Translations under genes and position numbers: made by a program | The notes under the pieces: generated by a model | Told to the model about the DNA's origin: nothing | Database searches by the model: none | What the model saw: only the letters and a program-made list of their open reading frames with translations | Assembly (NCBI GenBank): GCA_964433555.1 | Contig: CAYSRG010000005.1 | Coordinates: forward strand, 10,141 to 74,140 | Length of the DNA stretch: 64,000 nt | Direction of reading: 5' to 3' | Source of the DNA: an uncultured Atribacterota bacterium | GTDB lineage: Bacteria > Atribacterota > Phoenicimicrobiia > Phoenicimicrobiales > Stramentimicrobiaceae | Shown: positions 35,940-57,421 of the stretch, one piece after another | Numbering within the stretch: the stretch's first letter is position 1 | Layout of the letters: the number at the start of each line of letters is the position of its first letter

Positions 35940-35969
35940 ACAAATACCTCTTTTACTTTCTCAAAGATC

Positions 35970-38962: not shown

Positions 38963-39733
38963 TTAATTATTAATTCGTTCAGGATAGGTATAAATATTCA
39001 TTCTTTCCCCACGAGCAAATCCAATAAGAGTGACTCCTTGCTTATCCGCCAGTTGAATAGCATAATCAGTAGGAGCAGATCGGGAAATAACAATAGGAAT
39101 ATTTCCCTTTATAATTTTCTGCATAATTCCAGAAGTAATACGACAGGAAGTTAAAATTATCTTATCATCTGTATTAATATTCTTTAAGAGAGCCTCTCCT
39201 AAAATTCTGTCTATTGTATTATAACGGCTTATATCTTCGCAAAATAGAACAATACAACCATTATGATCAGCCAAACCACAACTATGTACGCCGCCACTTA
39301 ACTTAAAAAATTCAGCTTTTTCCTGCATAAGAGTGATGAGCAAATAAATAGTGCTGATATTGAGTTTGCTACTATTATCAACAGAAAGGGGTTCTCTTTT
39401 TCCTGATACTGTCTGCTTAATTTGATTAATAAGATTAGCACTGTATATTTTATCCGGCAAAAATAAAGAATTATTAATCTGGAAATATATTCCTTTCTTT
39501 CCTGTTTTAGTTGAAATTATTTCACGCTTATCCTTCACAATGCCTGCACTGTATAGAAATCCTGTTGCTAAATATTTCAAATTACCCGGACTGCAATTTA
39601 AGGTAACAATGTATTTCTGATTAACATAAACATTTAAAGTTTCCTCTTTAGCTACTAAATCAATAACCTTATTTCTCTCATATTTGTTAACCTGGATTAT
39701 TTCAGTTTCAGCACCCTTATTATTTGTTAACAT
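38963..39733 (-). CDS. fdhD: formate dehydrogenase accessory sulfurtransferase FdhD
   Basis: 256 aa. FdhD-like two-domain architecture with conserved Cys in the SCR..SGIM region. Overlaps mobA. Confidence 0.75.
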   Translation of the reverse strand: MLTNNKGAETEIIQVNKYERNKVIDLVAKEETLNVYVNQKYIVTLNCSPGNLKYLATGFLYSAGIVKDKREIISTKTGKKGIYFQINNSLFLPDKIYSANLINQIKQTVSGKREPLSVDNSSKLNISTIYLLITLMQEKAEFFKLSGGVHSCGLADHNGCIVLFCEDISRYNTIDRILGEALLKNINTDDKIILTSCRITSGIMQKIIKGNIPIVISRSAPTDYAIQLADKQGVTLIGFARGERMNIYTYPERINN

Positions 39734-40379
39734 TCTTTTTTCTCCGGTCTATTTCCAATTTCTCTGCTTCAATAAAATCACCTTGAAAGTTAATATTAAA
39801 AAAAGAATGTAATTCTGGATCACATCTTCTGATTTCCATTTCGGTAATCCGGCGAATTTTTAAAAAGGGAAAAATATCTCTTATCGCCAGTGTACCCTTT
39901 TTTAGATTCTGTTTAATTATTTTCAGGCAATTTTTACTATAAATGGCACATAAAGGTTCGAATAATTCCTTGCCATGAGTGGGAATTACTATATCATAAC
40001 CTTCCATATTTTCTATCATATATTCCACCAATCTTTTCTCAATAAAGGGCATATCATATCCTATAACTAGATTATAAAATGTTTTGGAATATTGTAAACC
40101 TGAAAAAATCCCTCCTAATGGCCCTTTTTGGGGGTAGATATCCTCTACAGTTAACTTATATTGGGGAAATCTATCTCTGGGTCCCACAATAATAATATCT
40201 TGCTCAGTAATTCCTTCTAGAGAAAGAATATTTAAAATAACTCGCTTTATAAGGATGGTACCCCTAAATTTTAGATAGCCTTTATCTTTACCTAAACCTA
40301 TTCTACTGCTTCTACCGCCTGCTAATACTATAACTGAAATAGCAGTATATTTTTTCTCTGTATCCATTATTATACTCAC
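39720..40379 (-). CDS. mobA: molybdenum cofactor guanylyltransferase MobA
   Basis: 219 aa. N-terminal VLAGGRSSRIG..DKG nucleotidyltransferase motif. Confidence 0.75.
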   Translation of the reverse strand: MSIIMDTEKKYTAISVIVLAGGRSSRIGLGKDKGYLKFRGTILIKRVILNILSLEGITEQDIIIVGPRDRFPQYKLTVEDIYPQKGPLGGIFSGLQYSKTFYNLVIGYDMPFIEKRLVEYMIENMEGYDIVIPTHGKELFEPLCAIYSKNCLKIIKQNLKKGTLAIRDIFPFLKIRRITEMEIRRCDPELHSFFNINFQGDFIEAEKLEIDRRKKNVNK

Positions 40380-40511: not shown

Positions 40512-41384
40512 TTATTTATTCTCTCTTAAATAAACATACCAATATATAGTAGCTACAAAGAAAGCTCCGCCAATTATATTGCCTATAGTTACTGGTAATA
40601 AATTATTAAATAAAAAACTCCCCCAATTCAATCGGCTAAGCTGATCCGTTAATCCTGCTGCTGCTACTACTGAAGTATTGTTTTTTAGCATAATACCCAT
40701 AGGTACAAAATACATATTGGCAATACTATGCTCAAAACCACTGGCTACAAAAGCCATAATGGGGAAATAGATACCAAGAATTTTACCAGGAACATCCTTA
40801 GCTGCTACTGCCATCCATACTGCCAGACATACCAGCCAGTTACAGAGAATTCCTCGTGCTATGGCTGCACTCCAGGTTAGATTAACCTTACCATTGGCTA
40901 TGGCCAAAGCCTTTGCCCCTACAGCAAAATTTCCGGTCTGCCAGAGCTGAGCATTATACATTAGCCATACTACCAGAAGAGAACCAATAAAGTTTGCTAT
41001 ATATACCCAGACCCAGCTGTTTAACAATTTTCCTACTGAAACATTCTTGTTTAAAGTGCCCACCACTATTAAATTATTTCCGGTAAATAATTCTGCCCCG
41101 GCAATAACAACCAGCATAAGACCAACTGAAAAGACACTACCAAATAGAAATTTGGTAATCCCATCACCTACATATTTTACTGCATCATAAGTAACCATAG
41201 TAGCCAGTTGCGCACCAAAACTGATATAAGCACCAGCTAGAATACCCAAGATAATCATTTTACTCCATGATAGACCAGCCTTGTTCTTACCAATAGTGCA
41301 AAAAGCATTAGCAATTGCACCTGGTGGGTTACATGGTGTTGTTACATCTTGCACTGATTGAATTTTATCTTTCTCTGTACTCAA
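40512..41384 (-). CDS. focA: formate/nitrite transporter family protein (FocA-like)
   Basis: 290 aa, 6-TM FNT fold with conserved GAELFTGN and half-helix motifs. Immediately downstream of fdhA. Confidence 0.85.
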   Translation of the reverse strand: MSTEKDKIQSVQDVTTPCNPPGAIANAFCTIGKNKAGLSWSKMIILGILAGAYISFGAQLATMVTYDAVKYVGDGITKFLFGSVFSVGLMLVVIAGAELFTGNNLIVVGTLNKNVSVGKLLNSWVWVYIANFIGSLLVVWLMYNAQLWQTGNFAVGAKALAIANGKVNLTWSAAIARGILCNWLVCLAVWMAVAAKDVPGKILGIYFPIMAFVASGFEHSIANMYFVPMGIMLKNNTSVVAAAGLTDQLSRLNWGSFLFNNLLPVTIGNIIGGAFFVATIYWYVYLRENK

Positions 41385-41417: not shown

Positions 41418-44192
41418 TCAGGATATCTTTTTAATCTTAACAGCACACACTTTATATTCTGGTATCTTAGAAACTGGATCAAGGGCTGCAATGGTTAATA
41501 AATTAGCAGCAGCTTCATGGAAATGGAAACTCATGAATACTACACCATTATCAGATTTTTCAGTAACCTTAGCCTTTGCCTGAATCTTTCCTCTTCGAGA
41601 GGCAACTTCAACCATTTCACCATCTTTTATACTCAATTGGCTGGCATCCTGAGGACTAATCTCAACTAATGCTTCTTTATATACTTCGCTTAGACCCTTA
41701 GATTTTCGGGTAACTGTACCGGTATGGAAGTGATATAATACTCTTCCAGTAGTAAAGATTAAAGGATATTCTTCATCAGGAAGTTCGGCAGCCTCTCTAA
41801 ATTCAACTGGGAAGAATTTTCCCTTTCCTCTAGTAAACTTATCCTCATGCAGGAACCTTGTCCCAGGATGGTTGGCATCTGGACAAGGCCATTGTAAACT
41901 TCCCTTTTCCAATCTTGGGTAGAGTATCCCTCTATAAATTGGAGTGAGTTGAGCAATTTCTTCCATAATTTCAGCAGGGCTATTGTAGCTCATATTATTA
42001 TATCCCATTTTCTGGGCTAGTTCACAGATTATCTGCCATTCCGGTTTTGATTCCCCTATGGGTTCAATAGCTTTATGGAATCTTTGTACTCTTCTCTCAG
42101 TATTAGTAATAGTGCCATCTTTCTCAGCAAAACTAGCACCGGGTAATACTACATCAGCTATTTCAGCTGTTTCAGTCATAAACATATCTGATACGACTAA
42201 AAAATCAACTTTCTTTAAAGCTTCACGGGCATGGTTTAAATCAGGATCTGACATAGCTGGATTTTCTGCCATGACCAATATCCCTCTAACTTTGCCTTCA
42301 TAAGCAGCGTTGAGTATTTCAACAACTGTCAATCCAACCTTGTTAGATAAATCTGCCTGCCAGGCTTTAGAAAACTTCTCTTGAACTGCGGGATCCACTA
42401 CGGCCTGATAACCGGAATACACATTGGGCAAAGCTCCCATATCACAAGCACCCTGAACATTGCTTTGTCCCCTTAAGGGATTTACTCCTGAACTCTCCTT
42501 CCCTATATTACCAGTTAACATCGCTATATTGGCAGTTGAAAGAACATTATCAGTGCCGCTAGTATGTTGGGTAATCCCCATGGAATAAATTAAAGAAGTA
42601 TTAGGACCTTTAGCATAAATTCTTGCTGCTTTTCTAATATCTTCAGCAGGTACTCCGGTAATCTTCGCTACTATTTCTGGATTATACTTAAGAACCACTT
42701 CCTTCATTTTTTCATAATCTTCGGTTCTTTCTTTAATAAATTCCTTATCTTCCAATCCCTCAGTAATTATGACATTCATCAAACCATTAAATAGAGCTAC
42801 ATCTGTTCCTGGTCTATGCCTTAACCAGAGAGTAGCATATTTAGCTAATTCTATTTCTCTAGGATCAGCTAAAATTAATTTTGCTCCATTTTTAGTTACC
42901 GCTTTTTTTATTTCCAGAGCAATGATAGGATGGTTCTCAGTAGTGTTGGAACCAGTTAAATAGATAACCGAGGCATGGGCAATTTCCTTAATAGAATTAG
43001 TCATGGCACCACTGCCAAAGGATTGAGCCAAGCCAGCAACGGTGGCTGAATGGCAAAGTCGGGCACAATGGTCAACATTATTGGTTCCCAGGACTGCCCT
43101 GGCAAATTTCATTAGTAGATAGTTTTCTTCATTAGTACATTTGGCTGAAGAAAGAACCGCTAAGCTATCTTGTCCGCTTTCTTTTTTAATCTCTTGAAAT
43201 TTATCACTGATTAACTGCAGTGCTTCATCCCAGGAAGCTGGTTCTAATTTACCATTTTTCCTGATTAAGGGAGTTTTTAAGCGATCTTCTCTATGAATAT
43301 AATCATTTCCAAAACGCCCTTTCACACAGAGATTAATGCCATTTACAACACTATCAGGATTGGAAGTAACCTTAACTACCTTGCCATCTTTAATATTCAG
43401 GTCAAATCCGCATCCGCATCCGCAGTAATTACAGGTAGTATGAACTTTTTCAAATTCCCAGGCTCTTCCTTTTCCTATAGCTGCCTTATCAGTTAATGCT
43501 CCAACAGGGCATACAGCAACGCACTGTCCACAAGAAACACAATTAGAATAATCGGGATTTTCTTCTGAACCAATAGTAATTTTTGTTTCATGTCCTAATT
43601 TATTGCCCAATCCGGCAATGACTTCTGTTTTTGTACCACGATATCCAAATCCAATAGCTCTTGATTGCTGAATCTCGTTACATATCTCTACACATCTTCG
43701 ACAAAGAATGCATTTATTCAAATCTCTTAAAATAAAAGGATTGCTTTCATCGATAGGAAGATTTCTTTCACTTCTGCCAAAACCGGATTCTTTAATCCCC
43801 ATTTCATAAGCTAAGTCCTGCAAATCACATTCACCATTCTTCTCACAGGTCATGCAATCCAGGGGATGCGTAGTTAATAATAATTCTAATACAGCTCGGC
43901 GAGCGTTTATTACTCTTTCACTATGAGTATATACAACCATACCTTCCTGTACCGGATATACGCATGAGGCAACCAGACAGGGATGACCTTTAACCTCTAC
44001 CACACATATACGACAGGAGCCTGGATAATGATTGATTTCTGGCATAGCACATAATGTGGGAATTATTATGCCTGCCTTAGTTGCTGCATCCAGGATTGTT
44101 GAATCAGGATCTGCCATAATTTTTTTGTCATTTATCGTTACCTGTACCAACGGCATCGCTATTTTTTCCTTTTTTACTCCTGTATCTTTCAT
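41418..44192 (-). CDS. fdhA: formate dehydrogenase catalytic subunit (Mo/W-bisPGD), FdsA/FdhA-like with NuoG-like N-terminus
   Basis: 924 aa. N-terminal 2Fe-2S ferredoxin plus His-ligated and two 4Fe-4S motifs. CNYCGCGCG cluster. MGD domain with active-site ...ARLCHSATVAGL..., Cys rather than Sec, and no in-frame stop. Confidence 0.9.
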   Translation of the reverse strand: MKDTGVKKEKIAMPLVQVTINDKKIMADPDSTILDAATKAGIIIPTLCAMPEINHYPGSCRICVVEVKGHPCLVASCVYPVQEGMVVYTHSERVINARRAVLELLLTTHPLDCMTCEKNGECDLQDLAYEMGIKESGFGRSERNLPIDESNPFILRDLNKCILCRRCVEICNEIQQSRAIGFGYRGTKTEVIAGLGNKLGHETKITIGSEENPDYSNCVSCGQCVAVCPVGALTDKAAIGKGRAWEFEKVHTTCNYCGCGCGFDLNIKDGKVVKVTSNPDSVVNGINLCVKGRFGNDYIHREDRLKTPLIRKNGKLEPASWDEALQLISDKFQEIKKESGQDSLAVLSSAKCTNEENYLLMKFARAVLGTNNVDHCARLCHSATVAGLAQSFGSGAMTNSIKEIAHASVIYLTGSNTTENHPIIALEIKKAVTKNGAKLILADPREIELAKYATLWLRHRPGTDVALFNGLMNVIITEGLEDKEFIKERTEDYEKMKEVVLKYNPEIVAKITGVPAEDIRKAARIYAKGPNTSLIYSMGITQHTSGTDNVLSTANIAMLTGNIGKESSGVNPLRGQSNVQGACDMGALPNVYSGYQAVVDPAVQEKFSKAWQADLSNKVGLTVVEILNAAYEGKVRGILVMAENPAMSDPDLNHAREALKKVDFLVVSDMFMTETAEIADVVLPGASFAEKDGTITNTERRVQRFHKAIEPIGESKPEWQIICELAQKMGYNNMSYNSPAEIMEEIAQLTPIYRGILYPRLEKGSLQWPCPDANHPGTRFLHEDKFTRGKGKFFPVEFREAAELPDEEYPLIFTTGRVLYHFHTGTVTRKSKGLSEVYKEALVEISPQDASQLSIKDGEMVEVASRRGKIQAKAKVTEKSDNGVVFMSFHFHEAAANLLTIAALDPVSKIPEYKVCAVKIKKIS

Positions 44193-44223: not shown

Positions 44224-47200
44224 TTAGTCCTCTCGATATTCACAACGTAAGCACCTGCTGCTTTCTCGACAGGTTATCTCTTTATTCCATGTTTTCTCTA
44301 CCTCGTTATGAACTCCTCTATCTTGAATCGGAAGGAGATGGACTTGAGAACGTGCATAATCTACTGGATCTGCTTCGGGATCAAAATCTACGTTAATTGG
44401 ATCTTTTATTCTCCAGGGATAAGCTCTTTTCTTACCAGTTAAATAAAAATCAATAGCTTCAGCAGCATTCTGTGCTTCTCCTATTGCCTCAACTACAGTA
44501 GCAGGACCTAATGCCACATCACCACCGGCAAAAACATCTTGTATTTTGGTTACTCCTTTTTCAGTGGGAATAGTTTGATCGCGATTAATAATAATTTCTT
44601 CATTATGGAATAAATCTGAAATAGCAGGTTTTTGTCCAATAGATAAGATTAAACAATCGACTTTCTTGATAAAAGTAGATTCTTTAATTTCAATGGGTCT
44701 ACGCCGACCAGAAGCATCATAATTGCCTAATTTCATATTCACTAACTCTACTTCCAGGGAATCTTTGTTTGATTTCACTGACTTTATATTTTGTAGTAAA
44801 GAAATATTTATACCTTCTCTTTCAGCTTCATTAACTTCAGCTTCATCAGCAGGCATTTCTTCTCTGGTTCTTCGATAAACAATGGTAACCTTTGCTCCAA
44901 GCCTTTTAGCAGTTCTAGCGGCATCAATGGCAGAATTACCACCACCAATTACTATTACCTCTTTGCCAATATCAAGCTTTTCCTTTCTATTAAACTTAGA
45001 TAAGAATTCCAAACCGCTAAAAATCCTGGAATCGTCTAGGTTGTCCATCTCAGGCATAATGCAGTCCCAGGCACCAGCAGAAATATAGAATGCCTGGTAA
45101 CCTTCTTTTCTCAGCTGATCTAAAGTTATATCCTCTCCAATCCTGGTATTTGTTCGTATCTTAACTCCATAATCTACCAGGGCTTGGATCTCTTTTTCCA
45201 CAATATTCTTTGGTAAACGATAAGATGGGATAGCATAGGTTAACATTCCACCTGCTTTGGGCTGTGCTTCAAATACTGTTGTTTCATATCCTAACATAGT
45301 TAGAAAATAAGCATTGGAAAGTCCAGAAGGACCGCCACCGATAATGGCAACTTTTTTACCATTTTTATTATTTTTTTCTGGGAAACAATCCAGATAATTA
45401 TCAACCTGATCGGCCATAAATCGTTTAACAGCACGAATATTTATGGCATCATCGATATCCTTTCTTCGACATCTGGATTCACAGAAAGCAGGGCACACTC
45501 TTCCGCATACCGCTGGAAAAGGATTTGTTCTTAAGTGTGCCTGCATTGCTTTTTTATATTGACCCTCTTTGGTATAAGCCAGATATGCCGGTACATTAAC
45601 TGAAGCAGGACAGGAATTATTACAAGGTGCATATACTAATTCTGCACATACTCCTGCTCTACATTTCTTATCTCTAATATGCTCGATATACTCATGCCTG
45701 AAGTATCTTAATGTGGATAAAATCGGATTGGGGGCAGTTTGCCCTAATCCACAAAGAGCTGTATCTTTAATTCGATAAGATAATTCTTCCAGCGTATCTA
45801 AATCTTCCATCTTGCCTTTACCTTCACAAATCCTGGTCAATATCTCCAGCATCACCCTGGTACCTTCACGACAAGGAGTGCATTTACCACAAGATTCATC
45901 CTGAATAAACTCCATGAAATAACGGGCTATATCGACCATACAGGTATCTTCATCCATTACTATCAATCCACCTGAGCCCATAATGGCACCCAGTTCTTTT
46001 AATGTTTCATAATCAACTATGGTATTTAGATGTTGTGCCGGAATGCAACCACCAGACGGACCGCCAATTTGAACAGCTTTAAATTTTTTATTTCCCGGAA
46101 TCCCTCCACCGATATTATAAACAATTTCACCTAGGGTAATACCTATAGGAACTTCGATTAAACCGGTATTGTTAATATTTCCAGCCAGAGCAAATATCTT
46201 AGTTCCTTTACTCTTTTCAGTTCCAACAGAAGCAAAATTTTCAGCTCCATATAAAATTATATAAGGTATATTAGCCAATGTTTCTACATTATTTAAAACA
46301 GTAGGGGATTCAAATAATCCTTTATTAGCAGGGAAGGGGGGTCTTGGCCTGGGTTCTCCCCTCTTGCCTTCAATAGAGCGCATTAAAGCAGTTTCCTCAC
46401 CACAAACAAATGCTCCTGCACCCATTCTAATTTCTACATCAAAATCAAAACCAGTCCCCAGGATATTCTTGCCCAGTAGCTGATGGTTCCTCATCTCTTT
46501 GATGGCAATTTTTAGCCTTTCAATAGCTAAGGGATATTCAGCCCGCACATAAATATATCCCTGGTTAGCTCCAATAGCATAACCGCCAATCATCATAGCT
46601 TCTAATACACTATAGGAGTCTCCTTCCAGCATACTACGATCCATAAATGCACCGGGATCACCTTCGTCTGCATTACATAAAATATATTTTTGTTTACCAG
46701 AAGCTCTTGCCGCAAATTCCCACTTCAATCCAGTTGGAAAACCGGCACCGCCTCTACCTCTCAACCCGGATTTTTTAATCTCATCAATTACTTGCTGGGG
46801 AGTCATCTCTGTCAAAGCCTTCCCCAAAGCCATAAAACCATCGGCACCGATATAATCATCAATGGTATTAACATCAATAATTCCACAGTTTCGGCGAGCA
46901 ATTTTTCTCTGTAATTTAAAGAAATCAATATCTTCTATCATAGCTACTAATTCTTCTGTTTTTGGCTTTTTATAAAAAAGCCGCTGCACTACTCTGCCTT
47001 TTAAGATATGTTCCTGTACAATTTCCCGGGCATCCTCTGGTTTTAATTGTTGATAAAACACTCCATCAGGATAAACAACCATAATGGGTCCCAGTTCACA
47101 TATACCCATACATCCAGTGGTAATAATTTCTACCTCTTTTTCCAGATTAGCCTCTTTTAATGCCACTTCCAACGCTTCTCTAACCCTTACTGAACCATTA

Positions 47201-47253
47201 GACATACAAGAAGTACCATGACATAGAAGAAGCTGGATTCTTATATTATTCAT
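44224..47253 (-). CDS. fusion protein: Trx-like [2Fe-2S] domain + NuoF/HydB-like flavoprotein + GltD/NfnB-like NAD(P)H oxidoreductase
   Basis: 1009 aa. N-terminal Cx4C..Cx3C. NuoF motifs (GRGGAGFPTGLKWE, FMN/NADH site). Cys-rich 4Fe-4S region. C-terminal two Rossmann GxGxxG (IIGGGPSGL, VIGGGNSAID) as in glutamate synthase small subunit. Confidence 0.8.
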   Translation of the reverse strand: MNNIRIQLLLCHGTSCMSNGSVRVREALEVALKEANLEKEVEIITTGCMGICELGPIMVVYPDGVFYQQLKPEDAREIVQEHILKGRVVQRLFYKKPKTEELVAMIEDIDFFKLQRKIARRNCGIIDVNTIDDYIGADGFMALGKALTEMTPQQVIDEIKKSGLRGRGGAGFPTGLKWEFAARASGKQKYILCNADEGDPGAFMDRSMLEGDSYSVLEAMMIGGYAIGANQGYIYVRAEYPLAIERLKIAIKEMRNHQLLGKNILGTGFDFDVEIRMGAGAFVCGEETALMRSIEGKRGEPRPRPPFPANKGLFESPTVLNNVETLANIPYIILYGAENFASVGTEKSKGTKIFALAGNINNTGLIEVPIGITLGEIVYNIGGGIPGNKKFKAVQIGGPSGGCIPAQHLNTIVDYETLKELGAIMGSGGLIVMDEDTCMVDIARYFMEFIQDESCGKCTPCREGTRVMLEILTRICEGKGKMEDLDTLEELSYRIKDTALCGLGQTAPNPILSTLRYFRHEYIEHIRDKKCRAGVCAELVYAPCNNSCPASVNVPAYLAYTKEGQYKKAMQAHLRTNPFPAVCGRVCPAFCESRCRRKDIDDAINIRAVKRFMADQVDNYLDCFPEKNNKNGKKVAIIGGGPSGLSNAYFLTMLGYETTVFEAQPKAGGMLTYAIPSYRLPKNIVEKEIQALVDYGVKIRTNTRIGEDITLDQLRKEGYQAFYISAGAWDCIMPEMDNLDDSRIFSGLEFLSKFNRKEKLDIGKEVIVIGGGNSAIDAARTAKRLGAKVTIVYRRTREEMPADEAEVNEAEREGINISLLQNIKSVKSNKDSLEVELVNMKLGNYDASGRRRPIEIKESTFIKKVDCLILSIGQKPAISDLFHNEEIIINRDQTIPTEKGVTKIQDVFAGGDVALGPATVVEAIGEAQNAAEAIDFYLTGKKRAYPWRIKDPINVDFDPEADPVDYARSQVHLLPIQDRGVHNEVEKTWNKEITCRESSRCLRCEYRED

Positions 47254-47275: not shown

Positions 47276-47773
47276 CTATTTGTATCTCTCTAAAATTGCG
47301 TCTAATTTACTGGGAGTTAACCGACCATGAACTTCATTGTCAACCATAATAACTGGAGCCATTCCGCATGACCCAAAACAACGTTGTTCTCCTAAAGTAA
47401 ATCTCAGATCTTCTGTTGTTTCGCCTATCTTTATACCCAATTTATTTTCTAATGCCTCCAGAATCTTTTTAGCACCTCTGACATAACAAGCTGTTCCCAT
47501 ACAGATTGTAATAGTGTGCCGACCTACAGGCTGTGTTTTGAAATAAGAATAAAATGTAACTACTCCAAATACTTCACTAACAGAAATATTCATCTCCTCA
47601 GCAACGAATTCTTGGACTTCTGAAGGTAAATAACCAAACAAGGATTGTGCTTTATACAAGACTGGGATTAAATAGCCCTTTTTCTCTTTATTATCTCTAA
47701 TAAAACTCCCTAATTCCTGGTACTTTTCTTCAACAGTGCATTCATCATTTTTAATGATAGCTGTTTCACTCAT
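47276..47773 (-). CDS. NuoE/HydC-like thioredoxin-fold [2Fe-2S] subunit
   Basis: 165 aa. Cx4C (ICMGTAC) and Cx3C (CFGSC). Confidence 0.8.
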   Translation of the reverse strand: MSETAIIKNDECTVEEKYQELGSFIRDNKEKKGYLIPVLYKAQSLFGYLPSEVQEFVAEEMNISVSEVFGVVTFYSYFKTQPVGRHTITICMGTACYVRGAKKILEALENKLGIKIGETTEDLRFTLGEQRCFGSCGMAPVIMVDNEVHGRLTPSKLDAILERYK

Positions 47774-48141
47774 TATTTTTTCCCCTTTGAAAATAAATAT
47801 TTTTCTACTACTCTATTATTTAAAACATGTTCATTAAAAATTATCCTTGCTGCCTCTACATCAACATTGCGATAAGTTACCGGTCTATCTTCTTCTACAT
47901 ATACATGAATCATAGGTTCTTGGGCGCAAAAACCAAAACATCCTGAAGCAGTAATAATAATATCCGTTTTTTTGCTTTTTTCAATCAATTCCAAGAATTC
48001 ATTCATTGTTTCTCTAGCCCCAGCAGCTATTCCACAACTACCCATTCCTACTACTATCTTGACACGATGCTTTCCCGATCTAAGCTTTAAATCTTTCTTT
48101 ACCTTCTCCCGCATTATCTTTAGTTCTTCAAAATTTTTCAT
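47773..48141 (-). CDS. small thioredoxin-like ferredoxin-fold protein (HydD-like; only 3 Cys)
   Basis: 122 aa. GSCG ... GCFGFC. Resembles the N-terminal domain of HydB. Confidence 0.5.
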   Translation of the reverse strand: MKNFEELKIMREKVKKDLKLRSGKHRVKIVVGMGSCGIAAGARETMNEFLELIEKSKKTDIIITASGCFGFCAQEPMIHVYVEEDRPVTYRNVDVEAARIIFNEHVLNNRVVEKYLFSKGKK

Positions 48142-48199: not shown

Positions 48200-48736
48200 T
48201 TACCTAATATCTATTTTTTTAAATTCTTTTTGTGATACCTCATAAATATGTTTTCTTATATTTATATAATTTTTTAATCCCTTAGCAATTTCATTTCGTA
48301 ATTCCAGGAAATCTAAAATCAGTTCCTCTCTATCCTCTTTGGTAATAAATAATTTAAGATTAATCTCCGGCCAGGCAAAAAATATATCTGTAAAAGTCCA
48401 GGCCAAATCACCAAAGGGTTTGGCATCAATATGAGACATGTCTATCTTAAATTGAAGAGCAGTCCCTCCTTTTTTATTTATCCTTCTTATCTTTAAATAT
48501 CCGCCGGTATCCTCTGCCGTTCTTTTTAATAAGGGGAGACCCAATCCAACCCTTCTGGTCTTCCTGGAAGTTATAAAAGGATCTAATACTTCCTGCCCAA
48601 TAATTCCTTTCCCATTATCGGAAATGCTACAAAAAAAAATACTTTTAGTATAAGTTATTTTCACAATAACTTCATTAGCCCCGGCATTAACTGAATTTTC
48701 TATAATATCAAAGAAATGGTCCGCTATATTTTTCAT
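48200..48736 (-). CDS. GHKL/histidine-kinase-like ATPase domain protein
   Basis: 178 aa. N-box ENSVNAG, G1 DNGKGI, G2 GLGLPL. Confidence 0.65.
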   Translation of the reverse strand: MKNIADHFFDIIENSVNAGANEVIVKITYTKSIFFCSISDNGKGIIGQEVLDPFITSRKTRRVGLGLPLLKRTAEDTGGYLKIRRINKKGGTALQFKIDMSHIDAKPFGDLAWTFTDIFFAWPEINLKLFITKEDREELILDFLELRNEIAKGLKNYINIRKHIYEVSQKEFKKIDIR

Positions 48737-49487
48737 TTCCGGTCTTCCTTAGAAAATCTTGCAATGAGCTAAAATCTATTATATGATTATCATCTTTTAC
48801 TTCCAAAAAAAATGTTCCAATATCTTCCAAAAAGTGGCTATCTGAACCGCTAATTACTGGGAATCCTTCCAGTAAGTCTCCAATTTCATATTTCTTATTT
48901 ATCCATTCAAATCTTGATACTTCTACTGCATCAAAATTACTAGTAGGATCTAAAAAACCTATCTGGCTCATTAAACTGCAATAATCTCTATTAATATGAG
49001 CCGGTATTGCTATTCCACCCAGAAAATGAATGTAGTCAATTAACTCATCTAAGCTGATTTGTAAAGCATTTTGCCTTAACATATAATCTATTTCAACTAT
49101 CTCTCCTTTTTCATCATAGATTAGCTGGTCACCAAAAAAAGAAGGTTTATTTTTCATTTTTGGCAGACAATCACTTATCTTCTTCTCCATCTCTCTCATA
49201 CTATATTCATCTGGGAAATAACCCAATATATGAATCTCTTCCCGGGTAGTCAGCTCAATCCCGAGAATAATATTAACTGAGCTTATTTTATTAATTTTTC
49301 TAATTAAAATCGAATGGGCAACCGCATTGTGATCAGTAATAGCAATTAAGTTTAGTCCGCTTTTTTCTGCCTTTTTCAATATGTTTTGTGGTGACATAAT
49401 ATTTTCCGCGCACGCTGAAAGAGAAGAGTGAATATGTAAATCAATCTTGATCAGATTTGCCTCCCAGCATCTGGTACAATAGACCAC
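48708..49487 (-). CDS. PHP-domain metal-dependent phosphoesterase
   Basis: 259 aa. IDLHIHSSLS...ITDHN His motifs of the PHP family. Confidence 0.75.
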   Translation of the reverse strand: MVYCTRCWEANLIKIDLHIHSSLSACAENIMSPQNILKKAEKSGLNLIAITDHNAVAHSILIRKINKISSVNIILGIELTTREEIHILGYFPDEYSMREMEKKISDCLPKMKNKPSFFGDQLIYDEKGEIVEIDYMLRQNALQISLDELIDYIHFLGGIAIPAHINRDYCSLMSQIGFLDPTSNFDAVEVSRFEWINKKYEIGDLLEGFPVISGSDSHFLEDIGTFFLEVKDDNHIIDFSSLQDFLRKTGNEKYSGPFL

Positions 49488-49785
49488 ATATTTGAAAAGA
49501 ATTTTTTTCAGTTCTCAATAGATTAATCTGTTCTTCCCTGGCTTTTTCTATCAATTCCTGGTTTATTTCTACATTATTGGTAAAGATAATTGCCCTTATA
49601 TCCTTGATCAGCGCTACAGCTATACTATTTTTATGTGCTTGGATAGTAATCCATACACTATCATTGCTGGCATGGGCAATAACATCTGACATTAAATCTC
49701 CACAATAACCTGTTTTGATTTCCTCATCTGAACAGAATACAATCTTCTCTAAGGAACATCTATTAATAATCTGGCTTAATTTCAT
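49441..49785 (-). CDS. DRTGG-domain protein
   Basis: 114 aa, DRTGG-like fold (GDLMSDV...). Paired with the CBS gene. Confidence 0.55.
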   Translation of the reverse strand: MKLSQIINRCSLEKIVFCSDEEIKTGYCGDLMSDVIAHASNDSVWITIQAHKNSIAVALIKDIRAIIFTNNVEINQELIEKAREEQINLLRTEKNSFQICGLLYQMLGGKSDQD

Positions 49786-49787
49786 CT

Positions 49788-50720
49788 CTATCCTCCTATA
49801 TGGATAACTGCTTTTAAAATAGTACCGGTTTCCATAGAAGATTCTAATTCTAGATGATCAGCGCATTTTTTTATATTGGGTAAACCCATGCCTGCACCAA
49901 ATCCTAAAGCCCTGATCTGTTCAGAAGCAGTTGTAAAACCCGGTTTCATTGCTTCTTCTATATCCGGAATACCTGGACCATAATCAACGGCAGTAATAAT
50001 AATACTATTCTGTTCCAATTCTACTGAAATATATCCCCCTAAGGAATGGATACTGATATTCATCTCTGCCTCATAGCAAATAATGGCAACTCTTCGCATA
50101 ATCTGTTTATCTATGGTCATTTTTTGTAAATAAGTTCTTATGATACTGGCTACTCTGCCAGCATTATCAAAGTCAGCTTTTTTGACTTCAAAACGAAGTG
50201 GCTTCTGTGGAGTATTCTTAATTAAGGTATCGGATAGCTGATAATTTCTGTTTTCTTTTTGTTCCACTTTCTCGGCAATGGTTTGAATAGTTAGCAGCAG
50301 TCTATTTAAAATATCTCCCATAGTTATGATACCAACTATTTTACGGGAATGGACATTCCCTGTTACCGGCAAACGACCAAATTTATATCTTTCAAACTTT
50401 TTTATAGCTGAAACCAAAGAATAATTTTGAGGAATGGTTATCACATCTTTAGTCATATAATCTTTTACCGTATCGTTCACATAATCTTCATCCAGAGCAG
50501 TAATTACATTATCAATACTGACAATACCAATAATATTTTTCTGTTCATCCAGGATGGGAACTCCTGAAATTCTATTTTGTTTCAAAGATAATTGAATCTC
50601 ACGAAAGGTAGCCTGCTCACCAAAAAATATTACCTTACTGGTCATAGCATCTTTCACTTTTAACTCATAAACCAGCTCATTGGCTAAAGTTAATTTTTCT
50701 CTGGAATGTAAAATTGTCAT
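49788..50720 (-). CDS. CBS-pair + GHKL ATPase domain protein
   Basis: 310 aa. Two CBS motifs, C-terminal HATPase-like G-boxes (GPGIPD, GFGAGMGL). Confidence 0.7.
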   Translation of the reverse strand: MTILHSREKLTLANELVYELKVKDAMTSKVIFFGEQATFREIQLSLKQNRISGVPILDEQKNIIGIVSIDNVITALDEDYVNDTVKDYMTKDVITIPQNYSLVSAIKKFERYKFGRLPVTGNVHSRKIVGIITMGDILNRLLLTIQTIAEKVEQKENRNYQLSDTLIKNTPQKPLRFEVKKADFDNAGRVASIIRTYLQKMTIDKQIMRRVAIICYEAEMNISIHSLGGYISVELEQNSIIITAVDYGPGIPDIEEAMKPGFTTASEQIRALGFGAGMGLPNIKKCADHLELESSMETGTILKAVIHIGG

Positions 50721-51064
50721 TTCTTCTCTTCACTAATAATTGCCTCAACAATTGCTCGACAGGCATCAAACATTGTTTTGGAGGTCATTAGAAGTGGGAT
50801 ACGGTGGGAACGGGCTAGACCAATTGCTTCCTGTTCAGGAGCTTTCCCCCTCACAAAAACCACACCTACCCCTCCGGCAATCTCAGCGGTTCTTACCACC
50901 TGCTGAGAGGTTAATCCAGTTAATAATAAAAAATCGTCCTTGCTTAAAGCAAGAACATCACTTAATAAATCACTGGCTGCAAATTCCTCAATATTCTGGT
51001 CTAGCAAGTTTTCTCCAGTCAAGACCTCAGCATCTAATATGTTGACAATATCTTTTATTTTCAT
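50717..51064 (-). CDS. DRTGG-domain protein
   Basis: 115 aa, second DRTGG paralog. First gene of the FDH operon. Confidence 0.55.
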   Translation of the reverse strand: MKIKDIVNILDAEVLTGENLLDQNIEEFAASDLLSDVLALSKDDFLLLTGLTSQQVVRTAEIAGGVGVVFVRGKAPEQEAIGLARSHRIPLLMTSKTMFDACRAIVEAIISEEKK

Positions 51065-51163: not shown

Positions 51164-51181
51164 TTGTGAAAAATATCACAA
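51164..51181. promoter_or_regulatory. Rex operator (Rex box)
   Basis: TTGTGAA-AAAT-ATCACAA, one mismatch to the Firmicutes Rex consensus TTGTGAAnnnnTTCACAA. Lies between rex and the first gene of the FDH operon. Confidence 0.6.
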
Positions 51182-51317
51182 AGCACACCAAGTCATTTTA
51201 TCACATGCCCTTAATATATGTCAAACTCGTCCTTAAATTTTTGGCCATAAATTATTTCGCCCTCTAGTTTTATTTTAAATACATCACTCCTGTTGGCAAA
51301 TAATAATTTTACAAAAT

Positions 51318-51911
51318 TTAAGATAAGTAATAGACCAGCTTTTCAAGTTCAATAGCAATATCAATATGTTTAATTGATATTCTCCGGGGATGTTTAATAC
51401 TAATGGGAGCAAAATTAAGTATTGACCTGACTCCTCCAGCTATCATCTGGTCAGCTACTTCCTGAGCCGATTGGGAAGGTACTGTAATAATACCAATTCG
51501 TATTTTCTGCTCTTTGAGAAATTTTTCCATGTCCTGGATATGTCTTATCCTGATATGGCCAATTTTTTTACCTACTTTAGCCATATCATTATCAAATACT
51601 GCTTTTATGATGAAGCCTCTTTTGGAGAATCCTTTATAACGAAGGAAGGCAGTCCCTAAATTGCCAGCACCAGCGAGCACTAAATTCCATTTTTGATTTG
51701 ATTTCAATATCTCCTTTAATTTATTAAATAATTCCAGGACAGGATAACCAATTCCCCTTTTCCCAAATTCACCAAAATAAGAAAAGTCTTTTCTAATTTG
51801 ATGGGGATTAATACCAGTTATATCTGACAGTCTGGACGAGGAAATTGTGGAAAACTCATTAACTCTCTTTGCTTCAATCAAAGATTCTAAGGTTCTATGA
51901 TAAATTGACAA
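51318..51911 (-). CDS. rex: redox-sensing transcriptional repressor Rex
   Basis: 197 aa. Winged-helix ISS..L....G....QIRKDFSYFGEFG, Rossmann GAGNLG NADH-binding domain. Confidence 0.85.
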   Translation of the reverse strand: MSIYHRTLESLIEAKRVNEFSTISSSRLSDITGINPHQIRKDFSYFGEFGKRGIGYPVLELFNKLKEILKSNQKWNLVLAGAGNLGTAFLRYKGFSKRGFIIKAVFDNDMAKVGKKIGHIRIRHIQDMEKFLKEQKIRIGIITVPSQSAQEVADQMIAGGVRSILNFAPISIKHPRRISIKHIDIAIELEKLVYYLS

Positions 51912-54424: not shown

Positions 54425-54638
54425 TCTTTTTCACCTCATTTCATTTATATTACCCGTAATCAGGGGAGATAGACCTTGAAACCACTTAAGTAAATATGTT
54501 TAAAAAAATTTCTTTCATCTTATAATCAGTATATCCAGGGAAATTATTCCCCTTAGGAATATCTGAACACTTCTTCTATATGGATTATGTAAATAAATTC
54601 GCTTTAGCAAATATCAAAACTTCAAAGAAATTTCGATA

Positions 54639-56866: not shown

Positions 56867-56877
56867 CTGTAGTCACC

Positions 56878-57393: not shown

Positions 57394-57421
57394 ATTATCA
57401 CCTGAACCTTCTCATTTTATT

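What the first reader, a model, noticed from the sequence alone, without database searches (positions are those of the whole stretch)
44224..47253. Unusual 1009-aa three-part fusion: Trx-like [2Fe-2S] + NuoF flavoprotein + GltD-like NAD(P)H oxidoreductase
A single ORF joins an N-terminal Cx4C/Cx3C thioredoxin-like [2Fe-2S] domain to a NuoF/HydB 51-kDa core. The C-terminus adds a ~450-aa module with two GxGxxG Rossmann folds and a Cys cluster, typical of glutamate synthase small subunit, NfnB and SudA. The protein therefore carries two separate nicotinamide sites, plausibly NADH at NuoF and NADPH at GltD. This points to confurcation or transhydrogenase-like chemistry linked to formate oxidation.
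Basis: seen in the sequence. Interest (0 to 1): 0.7.

Follow-up and report, generated by a model that had tools for sequence, protein, structure and literature searches.

The report
Formate dehydrogenase flavoprotein with added NADPH module
This gene encodes the flavoprotein subunit of a soluble formate dehydrogenase whose usual ferredoxin-docking end has been swapped for an NADPH-binding module; the swap is real and widespread in uncultured anaerobes, has never been studied biochemically, and may let cells link formate to both NADH and NADPH without ferredoxin.

Summary
An intact 1009-aa ORF lies at 44224-47253, on the minus strand. It carries a thioredoxin-like [2Fe-2S] domain, a NuoF FMN/NAD(H) core and a GltD-like 2x[4Fe-4S]/FAD/NADPH module.

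It is not an artefact. The identical protein occurs on 19 independently assembled contigs. At least 119 species genomes from many anaerobic phyla encode the same junction with no indels.

Residues 1-541 form a canonical bifurcating-type BfuB/HydB, 61-68% identical to solved HydB subunits and including the Bfu-specific Cys/His hinge. Directly after the hinge, the ferredoxin-like 2x[4Fe-4S] domain, where ferredoxin docks, is replaced. In its place sits the NADPH module otherwise found on subunit A of Nfn-Bfu/Stn transhydrogenases. This module is the non-bifurcating Lys-ligand type.

The gene sits in a putatively Rex-controlled operon: NuoE, the fusion, a Cys-type FdhA, FocA, MobA and FdhD. In related genomes the partner is FdhA or [FeFe] HydA.

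Most likely reaction (inferred): 2 formate + NAD+ + NADP+ <-> 2 CO2 + NADH + NADPH, with NADP(H) taking ferredoxin's branch.

I found the architecture noted only once, in a 2018 genome paper on a hydrogenase, and never characterised. I rate it a new variant of a known kind, of moderate to high interest.

The parts
44224..47253 (-). Fusion ORF, 1009 aa plus stop: a BfuB/HydB-type flavoprotein with a C-terminal NADPH module
46969..47241 (-). Residues about 5-95: N-terminal thioredoxin-like [2Fe-2S] domain (Bfu cluster B5), with ligands C11, C16, C48, C52
   Evidence: Pfam PF01257. Aligns with the HydB N-terminal domain. The four Cys are 84-99% conserved in the family.
45676..46869 (-). Residues 129-526: NuoF core. 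Contains the FMN loop G163-W178, the NAD(H) site C193-R206, the SLBB domain, and the [4Fe-4S] B1 cluster (C455, C458, C461, C501)
   Evidence: Motifs are 96-100% conserved.
45646..45681 (-). Residues 525-536: Bfu-specific B2 hinge ligands H525, C531, C536, acting together with C438 and C476. The fusion point lies immediately after this stretch.
   Evidence: Ligand set defined in Tsi NfnB and NiFe-HydB (PMC12018979). C438, H525, C531 and C536 are invariant in 73 fusions; C476 is 81% conserved.
45400..45630 (-). Residues 542-618: GltD-type 2x[4Fe-4S] region. Likely ligands are C544, C548, C583, C587, C591, C595, with K610 equivalent to the StnC K170 ligand
   Evidence: Pfam Fer4_20. Alignments to 9n5u_A, 9bov_A, 8oh5_C and 5jca_L. 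100% conserved.
44434..45357 (-). Residues 633-940: FAD domain (G639xGxxG) and NADPH domain (G770xGxxA, then Y793-R794-R795)
   Evidence: Pfam Pyr_redox_2. About 40-50% identical to the NADPH modules of Nfn-Bfu subunit A. Motif conservation.
44227..44433 (-). Residues 941-1009: C-terminal tail ending in the conserved E997-x2-R-C1001-L-R-C1004. This is homologous to the RCLEC linker of NfnA/StnC and probably supplies two further cluster ligands
47276..47773 (-). NuoE/HoxE-like [2Fe-2S] subunit (BfuC/HydC equivalent), 165 aa. Its stop is 22 nt upstream of the fusion start.
   Evidence: Pfam PF01257, E 2e-52. NCBIfam HoxE/NuoE. Present upstream of the fusion in 63 of 72 loci.
47773..48141 (-). 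Small thioredoxin-like ferredoxin-type protein, 122 aa, HydD-like, with only 3 Cys (C36, C68, C72)
   Evidence: Conserved next to the fusion in 55 of 72 loci.
41418..44192 (-). FdhA, 924 aa. A NuoG-like N-terminus ([2Fe-2S] plus [4Fe-4S] clusters) joined to a molybdopterin/tungstopterin formate dehydrogenase. The active site carries Cys (ARLCHSATV). Its start is 31 nt downstream of the fusion stop.
   Evidence: TIGR01591, E 5e-273. Pfam. Full-length match to FdsA 6tg9_A; Cys aligns with Sec of 9t1s_L.
40512..41384 (-). FocA-type formate channel
39720..40379 (-). MobA, molybdenum cofactor guanylyltransferase
38963..39733 (-). FdhD, formate dehydrogenase sulfurtransferase
48200..51064 (-). Upstream operon genes of unknown, regulatory-like role, typical of HydABC clusters: DRTGG (50717-51064), CBS-HATPase (49788-50720), DRTGG (49441-49785), PHP (48708-49487), HATPase_c (48200-48736)
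   Evidence: The same set appears in related loci.
51164..51224 (-). Best sigma-70-like promoter of the region (TTGACA-18-TAAAAT with TG, 51224..51195), followed by a palindromic Rex box TTGTGATATTTTTCACAA (51164-51181)
51318..51911 (-). Rex-type redox-sensing repressor (Put_DNA-bind_N plus CoA_binding)

Best explanation
SHOWN AT SEQUENCE LEVEL
- The ORF encodes the flavoprotein (B) subunit of a HydABC/Bfu-type soluble formate dehydrogenase.
- Residues 1-541 are a canonical bifurcating-type BfuB. They hold the N-terminal [2Fe-2S] B5 domain, the FMN/NAD(H) site, the [4Fe-4S] B1 cluster, and the Bfu-specific Cys/His B2 hinge.
- Directly after the hinge, canonical BfuB carries the ferredoxin-like 2x[4Fe-4S] B3/B4 domain, which is the low-potential exit and ferredoxin docking site. 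This protein carries instead the 2x[4Fe-4S]/FAD/NADPH module found on subunit A of Nfn-Bfu/Stn transhydrogenases. The module is the non-bifurcating, Lys-ligand type.

INFERRED FROM TIGHT OPERON STRUCTURE AND CONSERVED SYNTENY
- The protein assembles with the NuoE-like BfuC, a small Trx-like protein and the NuoG-type FdhA.

INFERRED MECHANISM
- Electrons exchanged with CO2/formate at FdhA travel through the NuoG-like cluster chain to B1/FMN.
- One branch exchanges a hydride with NAD(H) at FMN.
- The other branch runs C1 (BfuC) -> B2 -> the two module clusters -> FAD and exchanges a hydride with NADP(H).
- The overall reaction would be 2 HCOO- + NAD+ + NADP+ <-> 2 CO2 + NADH + NADPH. NADP(H) would occupy the branch that ferredoxin occupies in known Bfu enzymes.

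INFERRED PHYSIOLOGY
- In vivo the enzyme most likely runs towards CO2 reduction and acts as an electron sink. It would jointly re-oxidise NADH and NADPH, with FocA exporting the formate.
- This is suggested by the putative Rex box in front of the operon.
For: - Domain calls and E-values.
- Residues 5-541 align with bifurcating HydB/BfuB at E 1e-239 (7t2r_B) and E 4e-236 (7q4v_B). Identity is 61-68% by Foldseek. The alignments end at 541-549, exactly where the Fd-like domain of those proteins begins.
- The non-bifurcating FdsB and NuoF score far lower, around E 1e-115.
- B2 hinge ligands C438, H525, C531 and C536 are invariant in 73 family members. This His is a Bfu hallmark that is absent from non-bifurcating homologues (PMC12018979).
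- Residues 542-1005 match best the NADPH module of Tsi NfnA, Csac NfnA and S. ovata StnC (E 5e-110 to 3e-91). NfnL (8e-85) and GltD (1e-59) score lower.
- K610 aligns with StnC K170, whereas bifurcating NfnL has Glu at that position.
- The Y-R-R motif is invariant.
- No Fd-type Fer4 domain is detected.
- In known Bfu enzymes the low-potential path runs C1 -> (B2) -> B3/B4 -> Fd, and Fd docks on the B3/B4 domain.
- Operon and synteny. In 83 related loci the first downstream gene is FdhA (23), HydA (15) or a second NuoE-NuoF-HydA/FdhA set (24).
- Putative Rex box and promoter.
- Thermodynamics: E'(CO2/formate) is -300 to -370 mV at 10 uM to 1 mM formate. That lies between the physiological NADH (-280 mV) and NADPH (-380 mV) potentials listed in PMC9304861.
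- The AlphaFold2 model is rigid and confident across the junction.
- A separate Mbh-type hydrogenase in the window offers a route for ferredoxin re-oxidation.
Against: - There is no biochemical or structural data for any member of this family.
- I could not obtain model coordinates. It is therefore untested whether the module's clusters sit within electron-transfer distance of C1/B2, or instead of the FdhA NuoG-like clusters as in Stn.
- Ferredoxin could still bind elsewhere.
- Both NAD+ and NADP+ lie above the standard potential of formate. Coupling is therefore only needed at low formate concentrations.
- In about 15 of 83 loci no A-type partner gene follows the fusion. In 24 loci a second NuoE-NuoF pair intervenes. 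The subunit composition is therefore not uniform.
- NADPH specificity is inferred from homology and motifs only.
- Rex control rests on a single consensus-like site.
Confidence: 0.45

Rival explanations
1. Stn-like wiring with ferredoxin retained. The NADPH module is an additional mid-potential input or output that feeds the BfuBC core, as StnC/NfnA does. Reduced ferredoxin still takes part by docking elsewhere, for instance on the BfuC C-terminal domain, the small Trx-like protein or the module's distal cluster. The enzyme would then be a hybrid Fdh-Bfu/Nfn-Bfu handling formate, NAD(H), NADP(H) and Fd.
For: - The module is most similar to Nfn-Bfu subunit A modules. It keeps their C-terminal RCLxC linker motif, which in those proteins leads into the NuoG-like domain.
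- All Bfu core hallmarks are retained.
- JS1 Atribacteria papers annotate this type of enzyme as an electron-bifurcating FDH (PMC6776118).
Against: - The only experimentally mapped Fd docking element, the B3/B4 Fd-like domain, is missing. No Fd-type Fer4 domain is detected in the fusion, NuoE or the small protein.
- The module is attached at the B2 hinge on subunit B, not inserted in subunit A.
Confidence: 0.25
2. Uncoupled dual-coenzyme formate dehydrogenase. Electrons from formate reach either FMN/NAD+ or FAD/NADP+ independently. The enzyme simply lets one FDH serve both nucleotide pools, with incidental NADH:NADP+ transhydrogenase activity and no energetic coupling.
For: - Both NAD+ and NADP+ reduction by formate are exergonic under standard conditions.
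- The Moorella thermoacetica NADP-dependent FDH uses a GltD-like beta subunit without bifurcation (PMC5736913).
- The module's FAD is of the non-bifurcating type.
Against: - The family strictly conserves the features that distinguish bifurcating BfuB from non-bifurcating NuoF/FdsB. These are the B5 domain, the B2 His/Cys hinge and the BfuC partner.
- Its NuoF core is far closer to bifurcating HydB (E 1e-240) than to FdsB (E 1e-115).
Confidence: 0.17
3. Stand-alone transhydrogenase module. The small protein, NuoE and the fusion together form an autonomous NADH:NADP+ oxidoreductase. It is merely co-transcribed with, and not bound to, FdhA or HydA.
For: - The trio is the invariant core across loci.
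- In L004, L034, L052 and about 15 of 83 loci no FdhA or HydA follows.
- In many PVC and Atribacterota loci a complete second NuoE-NuoF-HydA set follows.
Against: - In this window FdhA has a NuoG-type N-terminus that needs a NuoEF-type partner. The fusion and NuoE are the only such genes in the operon.
- The intergenic gaps are 22 and 31 nt.
- FdhA or HydA directly follows the fusion in 38 loci. These include the isolates Thermanaeromonas toyohensis and Desulfitibacter alkalitolerans.
Confidence: 0.08
4. Artefact. A frameshift, misassembly or read-through has joined separate nuoF-like and gltD-like genes.
For: None found.
Against: - The identical ORF occurs on 19 contigs from independent assemblies.
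- At least 119 species genomes carry the same junction at fixed spacing.
- Complete, isolate-derived genomes carry it too.
- The junction aligns without indels and the model is confident across it.
Confidence: 0.01

Closest known systems
BfuB/HydB of electron-bifurcating HydABC-type (Bfu) enzymes: A. mobile NiFe-HydABCSL 7t2r, A. woodii and T. kivui HydABC 7q4v/8a6t, T. maritima HydABC 7p5h
   Same: Residues 1-541 share 61-68% identity. They have the same N-terminal [2Fe-2S] domain, FMN/NAD(H) site, B1 cluster and B2 Cys/His hinge, the same NuoE-like partner, and a NuoG-type catalytic partner.
   Different: The C-terminal Fd-like domain with two CX2CX2CX3CP clusters (B3/B4) is absent. That domain is the ferredoxin docking site. 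A 470-aa NADPH/FAD/2x[4Fe-4S] module takes its place.
Nfn-Bfu / Stn transhydrogenases: S. ovata StnABC 8oh5, C. saccharolyticus NfnABC 9bov, T. sibiricus NfnABC 9n5u
   Same: The NADPH module is the same, at about 40-50% identity. It shares the Lys ligand (K610 = StnC K170), R679 = R239, the Y-R-R motif and the C-terminal RCLxC motif. The BfuBC core is also the same.
   Different: In those enzymes the module is inserted in subunit A, between the [2Fe-2S] domain and the NuoG-like part. Their subunit B keeps its Fd-like domain, and the FdhF-like part of subunit A is catalytically dead. Here the module is on subunit B, the Fd-like domain is gone, and subunit A looks like an active FDH: it has an active-site Cys and FdhD, MobA and FocA accessory genes.
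Fdh-Bfu enzymes: G. acidurici HylABC-FdhF2; C. autoethanogenum NADP-specific Hyt/Fdh complex
   Same: Formate dehydrogenase coupled to a NuoEF-type bifurcating core, with formate as the mid-potential substrate (PMC9304861; PMC5736913).
   Different: Those enzymes use ferredoxin as the low-potential partner and have a single nicotinamide site. None has a GltD-type module on subunit B.
Enlarged HydB with GltD domain in the second trimeric [FeFe] hydrogenase of Vallitalea guaymasensis L81 (peg.3894-3896), noted in a genome paper
   Same: [quoted passage not shown] I did not compare its sequence.
   Different: The partner is a hydrogenase, not an FDH. It is a genomic remark only, with no analysis of the module's origin, distribution or mechanism. 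The authors speculated on a link to glutamate metabolism.
Moorella thermoacetica NADP-dependent formate dehydrogenase FdhAB (Moth_2312-2314)
   Same: An FDH that draws on NADPH through a beta subunit described as having 4Fe-4S, ferredoxin-type and NADP-binding domains. From background knowledge I take this to be GltD-like.
   Different: It has no NuoF/NuoE core and no second nicotinamide site, and its FdhA is a selenocysteine type.
NfnAB / NfnSL (T. maritima 4ylf, P. furiosus 5jca)
   Same: A GltD-fold NADPH/FAD subunit with two [4Fe-4S] clusters that links the NADH and NADPH pools.
   Different: NfnL bifurcates at its own FAD, has a Glu-ligated proximal cluster, and pairs with a PyrK-like NfnS. 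Here the ligand is Lys, there is no NfnS, and the partner is a NuoF core.

Membership tests
Bfu (HydABC-type) family, subunit B | NuoF-type FMN and NAD(H) binding motifs | tested here: met
   GLRGRGGAGFPTGLKW, CNADEGDPGAFMDR and GAGAFVCGEETAL are present and 96-100% conserved in 73 homologues.
Bfu (HydABC-type) family, subunit B | B1 [4Fe-4S] cluster with four Cys | tested here: met
   C455, C458, C461 and C501 are 99-100% conserved.
Bfu (HydABC-type) family, subunit B | N-terminal thioredoxin-like [2Fe-2S] domain (B5) | tested here: met
   PF01257 over residues 6-81. C11, C16, C48 and C52 are 84-99% conserved.
Bfu (HydABC-type) family, subunit B | B2 hinge site with the Bfu-specific His plus Cys ligands (Tsi NfnB C437, H524, C529, C534; extra C476 in NiFe-HydB) | tested here: met
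   C438, H525, C531 and C536 are invariant; C476 is present here and in 81% of the family.
Bfu (HydABC-type) family, subunit B | C-terminal ferredoxin-like domain with two CX2CX2CX3CP [4Fe-4S] clusters (B3/B4), the Fd docking site. IPR017896 was required in the Bfu census. | tested here: not met
   There is no Fd-type Fer4 hit. Alignments to all solved BfuB chains stop at residues 539-549. A Fer4_20/GltD module occupies this position.
Bfu (HydABC-type) family, complex | NuoE-like BfuC and NuoG-like BfuA partners encoded alongside | tested here: met
   NuoE/HoxE at 47276-47773. FdhA carries Fer2_4, NADH-G_4Fe-4S_3 and Fer4 domains at its N-terminus.
Bfu (HydABC-type) family, complex | Tightly coupled reduction of NAD+ and ferredoxin by a third substrate | not testable with these tools
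   This needs enzyme assays.
Nfn-Bfu / Stn transhydrogenase | GltD-fold NADPH/FAD module with two [4Fe-4S] clusters and a Lys (not Glu) at the proximal cluster | tested here: met
   The best PDB sequence matches for residues 542-1005 are 9n5u_A, 9bov_A and 8oh5_C. K610 = StnC K170 and R679 = StnC R239.
Nfn-Bfu / Stn transhydrogenase | The module is inserted in subunit A (the NuoG-like subunit), and subunit B keeps its Fd-like domain | tested here: not met
   The module is fused to subunit B. FdhA has no GltD insertion.
Nfn-Bfu / Stn transhydrogenase | The FdhF-like part of subunit A is catalytically inactive, so NADPH is the only third substrate | tested here: not met
   FdhA matches the equivalog TIGR01591 at 907 bits (cut-off 666). 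It has the ARLCHSATV active-site Cys and is followed by FocA, MobA and FdhD.
NfnAB / NfnSL | Glu ligand on the proximal [4Fe-4S] of the bifurcating GltD-like subunit | tested here: not met
   Lys is at the aligned position; 5jca_L has Glu (PMC10482914).
NfnAB / NfnSL | PyrK-like NfnA/NfnS partner with FAD and [2Fe-2S] | tested here: not met
   No such gene is in the operon or within 10 kb either side.
NAD-dependent FdsABG-type formate dehydrogenase (non-bifurcating) | An FdsB-type NuoF subunit, which lacks the Bfu hinge His | tested here: not met
   H525 and the hinge Cys are present. FdsB chains score E 1e-115 against 1e-240 for HydB. The absence of the His in non-bifurcating homologues is taken from PMC12018979; I did not inspect the aligned FdsB residue. 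FdhA itself does resemble FdsA over its full length.
Glutamate synthase small subunit (GltD) | Partner GltB large subunit and an equivalog-level score | tested here: not met
   The GltD/GOGAT models score far below their cut-offs: 257 against 483 and 197 against 448. No GltB is in the operon or the flanking regions annotated here.

The most novel reading that the evidence does not exclude
This family is a ferredoxin-independent kind of electron bifurcation or confurcation. A Bfu core would split electrons from a mid-potential donor, formate here and H2 in sister operons, between the two pyridine-nucleotide pools: NAD+ on the high branch and NADP+ on the low branch. In reverse it would pool NADH and NADPH to make formate or H2. 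That would be a new class of redox-balancing enzyme, widespread in syntrophic and subsurface anaerobes. It would also be a natural experiment on how the Bfu low-potential branch works.
Probability: 0.35. Interest if true: 0.8.

Novelty: new variant of a known kind. Interest (0 to 1): 0.55.

Why it matters
The bifurcation mechanism of Bfu/HydABC enzymes is still debated. In every characterised member the low-potential branch ends in ferredoxin, docked on the B3/B4 domain.

In this subfamily, found in at least 119 species genomes, that domain is replaced by an NADP(H)/FAD module. Three things follow.

1. It offers a direct test of whether the Bfu core can drive a hydride carrier instead of ferredoxin.
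2. It would change how formate and H2 metabolism is modelled in Atribacterota, Lentisphaerota, Anaerolineae, Syntrophales and similar groups. These genes are currently annotated only as 'NuoF' or 'electron-bifurcating FDH (NADH + Fd)'.
3. It points to a possible link between the NADH and NADPH pools and interspecies formate or H2 transfer.

Cultured carriers exist: Thermanaeromonas toyohensis, Desulfitibacter alkalitolerans and Vallitalea guaymasensis. The question is therefore open to experiment.

Tried and rejected
- The search for related loci with a 13-sequence alignment of diverse fusions failed because no conserved stretch was found. I replaced it with a junction-spanning DNA pattern.
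- My first Rex-box search used the wrong spacing and found nothing relevant. The correct 18-bp consensus found the site.
- Literature searches for named fusions (NuoF-GltD, HydB-GltD and similar) returned nothing.
- The Bfu census, the Hydrogenedentota Bfu paper, the non-bifurcating HydB paper and the GltD-module review do not mention this architecture.
- A crude neighbour-joining tree of the NuoF core shows several pure-fusion clades (39, 20 and 12 members) interleaved with ordinary HydB. It cannot decide between one fusion event and several. It does show FdhA and HydA partners mixed within clades.
- The AlphaFold2 model is confident, but coordinates are not exposed, so I could not measure distances between clusters.
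- The artefact or frameshift idea is rejected.
- I considered a formate-hydrogenlyase link to the neighbouring Mbh-type hydrogenase and did not adopt it. FdhA here is NuoG-type and pairs with NuoEF genes, and the two clusters are separated by hycI on the opposite strand, a SPOR gene and rex.

Full report
**1. The observation**

The ORF is real and sits at the stated coordinates, 44224..47253, but on the minus strand. It starts with ATG and encodes 1009 aa. An AAGGAG ribosome-binding site lies just upstream.

Pfam finds 2Fe-2S_thioredx (6-81), Complex1_51K (159-330, E 7e-46), SLBB (354-402), NADH_4Fe-4S (441-525, E 3e-36), Fer4_20 (532-618, E 2e-19) and Pyr_redox_2 (633-927, E 3.5e-31). NCBIfam gives nuoF_fam over 129-526 (E 7e-150) and an NAD(P)-binding GltD-like model over 496-1004 (E 1e-138).

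**2. Not an artefact**

- The identical protein is encoded on 19 contigs from independent ENA and JGI assemblies, always in the same gene context.
- Full-length homologues of about 1010 aa are abundant. They share 70-91% identity in Atribacterota/Caldatribacteriota and about 60% in Lentisphaerota, Victivallales and Verrucomicrobiota.
- I scanned one genome per species (GTDB) with a DNA pattern that demands the NuoF motif CGLGQ exactly 231 nt upstream of the GltD motif CGRVCP.
- Together with the six loci fetched earlier, 120 loci carry an ORF that spans the junction. Of these ORFs, 81 are complete at 907-1132 aa.
- In 73 full-length sequences the junction aligns without indels.
- An AlphaFold2 model has mean pLDDT 89.6 and pTM 0.86, with pLDDT of at least 90 across residues 520-560.

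**3. Anatomy**

*Residues 5-541: a bifurcating-type BfuB.* This stretch aligns end to end with the B subunits of structurally solved electron-bifurcating enzymes:
- A. mobile NiFe-HydB, 7t2r_B, E 1e-239
- A. woodii HydB, 7q4v_B, E 4e-236
- Csac NfnB, StnB, Tsi NfnB and T. maritima HydB

Identity is 61-68%. Non-bifurcating NuoF and FdsB score only about E 1e-115.

*The alignments stop at 539-549.* That is where those proteins begin their ferredoxin-like 2x[4Fe-4S] domain (B3/B4).

*The B2 hinge just before this point is intact.* In T. sibiricus NfnB the B2 ligands are C437, H524, C529 and C534, and the NiFe enzyme adds C476. That paper states the His is conserved in Bfu B subunits but absent from non-bifurcating homologues (PMC12018979). 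The window protein has C438, C476, H525, C531 and C536. The first, third, fourth and fifth are invariant in 73 family members, and C476 is present in 81%.

*Residues 542-1005: the NADPH module.* They match best the NADPH-binding module of subunit A of the Nfn-Bfu/Stn transhydrogenases:
- Tsi NfnA, 9n5u_A residues 105-507, E 5e-110
- Csac NfnA, 9bov_A, E 7e-105
- S. ovata StnC, 8oh5_C, E 3e-91

These beat bifurcating NfnL (8e-85), T. maritima NfnB (4e-76) and true GltD (about 1e-59).

*The module is the non-bifurcating type.* The Stn structure paper identifies K170 as the distinctive ligand of the proximal cluster in the non-bifurcating StnC module, where NfnB has Glu (PMC10482914). The window protein has K610 at that position and P. 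furiosus NfnL has Glu. K610 is invariant in the family.

*Cluster ligands and coenzyme motif.* The likely ligands of the two module clusters are C544, C548, C583, C587, C591, C595, K610 and the C-terminal C1001xxC1004. All are 97-100% conserved. The VTIVYRRTREEMPA motif matches that of the experimentally NADPH-specific Nfn-Bfu enzymes, and Y793-R794-R795 is invariant.

*No solved structure has this combination.* No PDB chain covers both halves; the highest TM-score normalised to the query is 0.52.

**4. Context in the window**

All the genes below are on the minus strand and tightly spaced. The order is:
- rex (51318-51911)
- the best sigma-70-like promoter of the region (51224..51195, 11 of 12 matches with an extended -10)
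- a palindromic Rex box, TTGTGATATTTTTCACAA (51164-51181). It has one mismatch to TTGTGAANNNNTTCACAA, the Rex operator consensus I recalled from background knowledge. About 0.6 sites with up to two mismatches are expected by chance in the window.
- DRTGG, CBS-HATPase, DRTGG, PHP and HATPase_c genes
- a 122-aa Trx-like protein with only three Cys
- NuoE/HoxE-like protein, 165 aa
- the fusion
- FdhA, 924 aa
- FocA, MobA and FdhD

FdhA has the NuoG-type N-terminus and resembles FdsA over its full length (6tg9_A). Its active site carries Cys (ARLCHSATV), which aligns with the selenocysteine position of 9t1s_L. The fusion and NuoE are the only NuoEF-type genes in the operon.

Upstream lies an Mrp/Mbh-type membrane-bound [NiFe] hydrogenase with HycI. 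Downstream lie HypF, HypC, HypD and HypE. This fits published descriptions of JS1 Atribacteria, which are credited with an 'electron-bifurcating formate dehydrogenase' and with Mbh for ferredoxin re-oxidation (PMC6776118).

**5. The family**

*Taxa.* The loci come from Atribacterota, Lentisphaerota/Victivallales, Kiritimatiellae, Verrucomicrobiota, Chloroflexota (Anaerolineae, Caldilineaceae, Dehalococcoidia), Desulfobacterota (Syntrophales, Desulfomonilia), Acidobacteriota, Aminicenantes, Syntrophomonadaceae and others.

*Upstream.* NuoE and the small protein both precede the fusion in 51 of 72 loci. NuoE alone precedes it in 12 more.

*Downstream.* The first downstream gene is:
- FdhA in 23 loci, often split in two ORFs, which suggests selenocysteine
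- [FeFe] HydA in 15 loci
- a second NuoE plus a 547-aa NuoF, followed by HydA or FdhA, in 24 loci
- nothing recognisable in 15 loci
- a further fragment of a split fusion ORF in 6 loci

*Isolates.* Thermanaeromonas toyohensis ToBE and Desulfitibacter alkalitolerans carry NuoE, HATPase, the small protein, the fusion and HydA.

*Phylogeny.* A crude neighbour-joining tree mixes FdhA- and HydA-linked fusions within clades. The fused B subunit therefore looks like a module that exchanges catalytic partners.

*Conservation.* Both nucleotide sites and all cluster ligands are 96-100% conserved. Both sites are therefore under selection.

**6. What is known**

- In every characterised Bfu enzyme the low-potential branch runs FMN/C1 -> (B2) -> B3/B4 -> ferredoxin. 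Ferredoxin docks between the BfuC C-terminal domain and the B3/B4 domain (PMC12018979; PMC10482914; PMC9304861).
- In Nfn-Bfu/Stn the NADPH module is an insertion in subunit A and acts as the mid-potential input.
- The Bfu census required the Fd-type 4Fe-4S InterPro domain (IPR017896) and excluded metagenomic data. The fusion shows no Fd-type Fer4 Pfam hit, so this subfamily was probably excluded by construction. The census paper does not mention any such fusion.
- I found one prior remark. [quoted passage not shown]
- The HydDB classification rule 'GltD but not NuoF' hints that such proteins had been seen.
- I found no biochemical or structural study. I also found no description of the FDH-linked form.

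**7. Most likely mechanism**

*Shown.* The protein is a Bfu-type B subunit that keeps every core hallmark. It lacks the ferredoxin-docking domain and carries an NADPH/FAD/2x[4Fe-4S] module of the non-bifurcating Stn type at that exact position. It is encoded with BfuC and an apparently active NuoG-type FdhA.

*Inferred.* The complex couples CO2/formate to both nicotinamide pools. NAD(H) reacts at FMN, and NADP(H) reacts at the end of the former ferredoxin branch (C1 -> B2 -> module clusters -> FAD). The net reaction would be 2 HCOO- + NAD+ + NADP+ <-> 2 CO2 + NADH + NADPH.

*Energetics.* The calculation takes E0' = -430 mV and 0.1-0.3 atm CO2. The formate couple then sits at about -300 to -370 mV for 10 uM to 1 mM formate. 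That lies between the physiological NADH (-280 mV) and NADPH (-380 mV) potentials used in PMC9304861. NADH alone could sustain only about 2 uM formate, whereas NADH plus NADPH could sustain about 80 uM.

*Direction.* The putative Rex box and FocA suggest that the enzyme works as a CO2-reducing electron sink when NADH/NAD+ is high. This rests on background knowledge of Rex regulons and was not tested here.

**8. Rivals**

- Ferredoxin still takes part through another site, giving a hybrid Fdh-/Nfn-Bfu.
- The two nucleotide sites work independently, giving an uncoupled dual-coenzyme FDH.
- The small protein, NuoE and the fusion form a stand-alone transhydrogenase.

Retention of the bifurcation hallmarks argues against the second rival. 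FdhA's need for a NuoEF partner, and the synteny, argue against the third. Loss of the only mapped Fd-docking domain argues against the first, though not decisively.

**9. Verdict**

It overstates rarity, misidentifies the nearest relatives of the module, and leaves out the key point that the ferredoxin domain is replaced.

I rate this a new variant of a known kind, the Bfu/HydABC family. The variant is widespread and uncharacterised, and isolates are available for testing.

Noticed in passing
window 54017-62287 (- strand) and 53161-53607 (+): An Mrp/Mbh-type membrane-bound [NiFe] hydrogenase cluster with the HycI maturation protease. It includes MnhE/F/G/B-like proteins, a NuoK-like protein, an antiporter-like M subunit, 20-kDa and 30-kDa subunits, the NiFe large subunit, a NuoH-like protein and a 2x[4Fe-4S] subunit. 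It is a likely route for ferredoxin re-oxidation, separate from the FDH operon.
   Followed up: partly
window 33375-38285 (- strand): Hydrogenase maturation genes HypF (35970-38285), HypC (about 35.7-35.97 kb), HypD (34645-35727) and HypE (33375-34385), directly downstream of the FDH operon.
   Followed up: partly
window 51164-51224 and 51318-51911: A rex gene, then a strong sigma-70-like promoter, then a near-consensus palindromic Rex operator about 100 bp upstream of the first operon gene. This suggests NADH/NAD+-responsive control of the whole FDH operon.
   Followed up: partly
window 47773-48141 (- strand): A 122-aa thioredoxin-like ferredoxin-type protein that keeps only three of the four canonical [2Fe-2S] Cys (C36, C68, C72). 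A homologue sits next to the fusion in 55 of 72 related loci. Its role is unknown; it may be a HydD-like extra subunit.
   Followed up: partly
window 48200-51064 (- strand): DRTGG, CBS-HATPase, DRTGG, PHP and HATPase_c genes are co-transcribed with the enzyme genes. The same set recurs in related hydrogenase and FDH loci, including isolates. Their function is unknown.
   Followed up: no
L005:10054-13975, L006, and 24 of 83 related loci: In sister lineages the fusion is followed by a second NuoE and a 547-aa NuoF, and then by HydA or FdhA. That NuoF has no Pfam hit for either the N-terminal [2Fe-2S] domain or a C-terminal Fe-S domain. This implies larger complexes with two NuoEF pairs and perhaps three nucleotide sites.
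   Followed up: partly
P0129, P0137, P0143, P0146, P0183, P0151, P0193 (alignment A1): Distant NuoF-GltD fusions at 33-38% identity have degenerate FMN/NADH and B1-cluster motifs but an intact GltD module. Four of them (P0143, P0151, P0183, P0193) carry a further Cys-rich C-terminal extension after RCLRCD. This looks like a separate family with a decayed NuoF domain.
   Followed up: no
related loci, e.g. L025, L086, L089-L091: FdhA partners are often split into two ORFs of about 351 and 539 aa. This is consistent with an in-frame UGA selenocysteine. The window's FdhA has Cys instead.
   Followed up: no
window 22204-23140 and 19507-19580: A tRNA cluster (Thr, Val, Glu, Lys) and a tRNA-Gln. The rest of the annotated window is ordinary housekeeping: BamA/Omp85, an AcrB-type efflux system, Mfd, PFK, DnaB, MreB/MreC and ribosomal proteins.
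   Followed up: no
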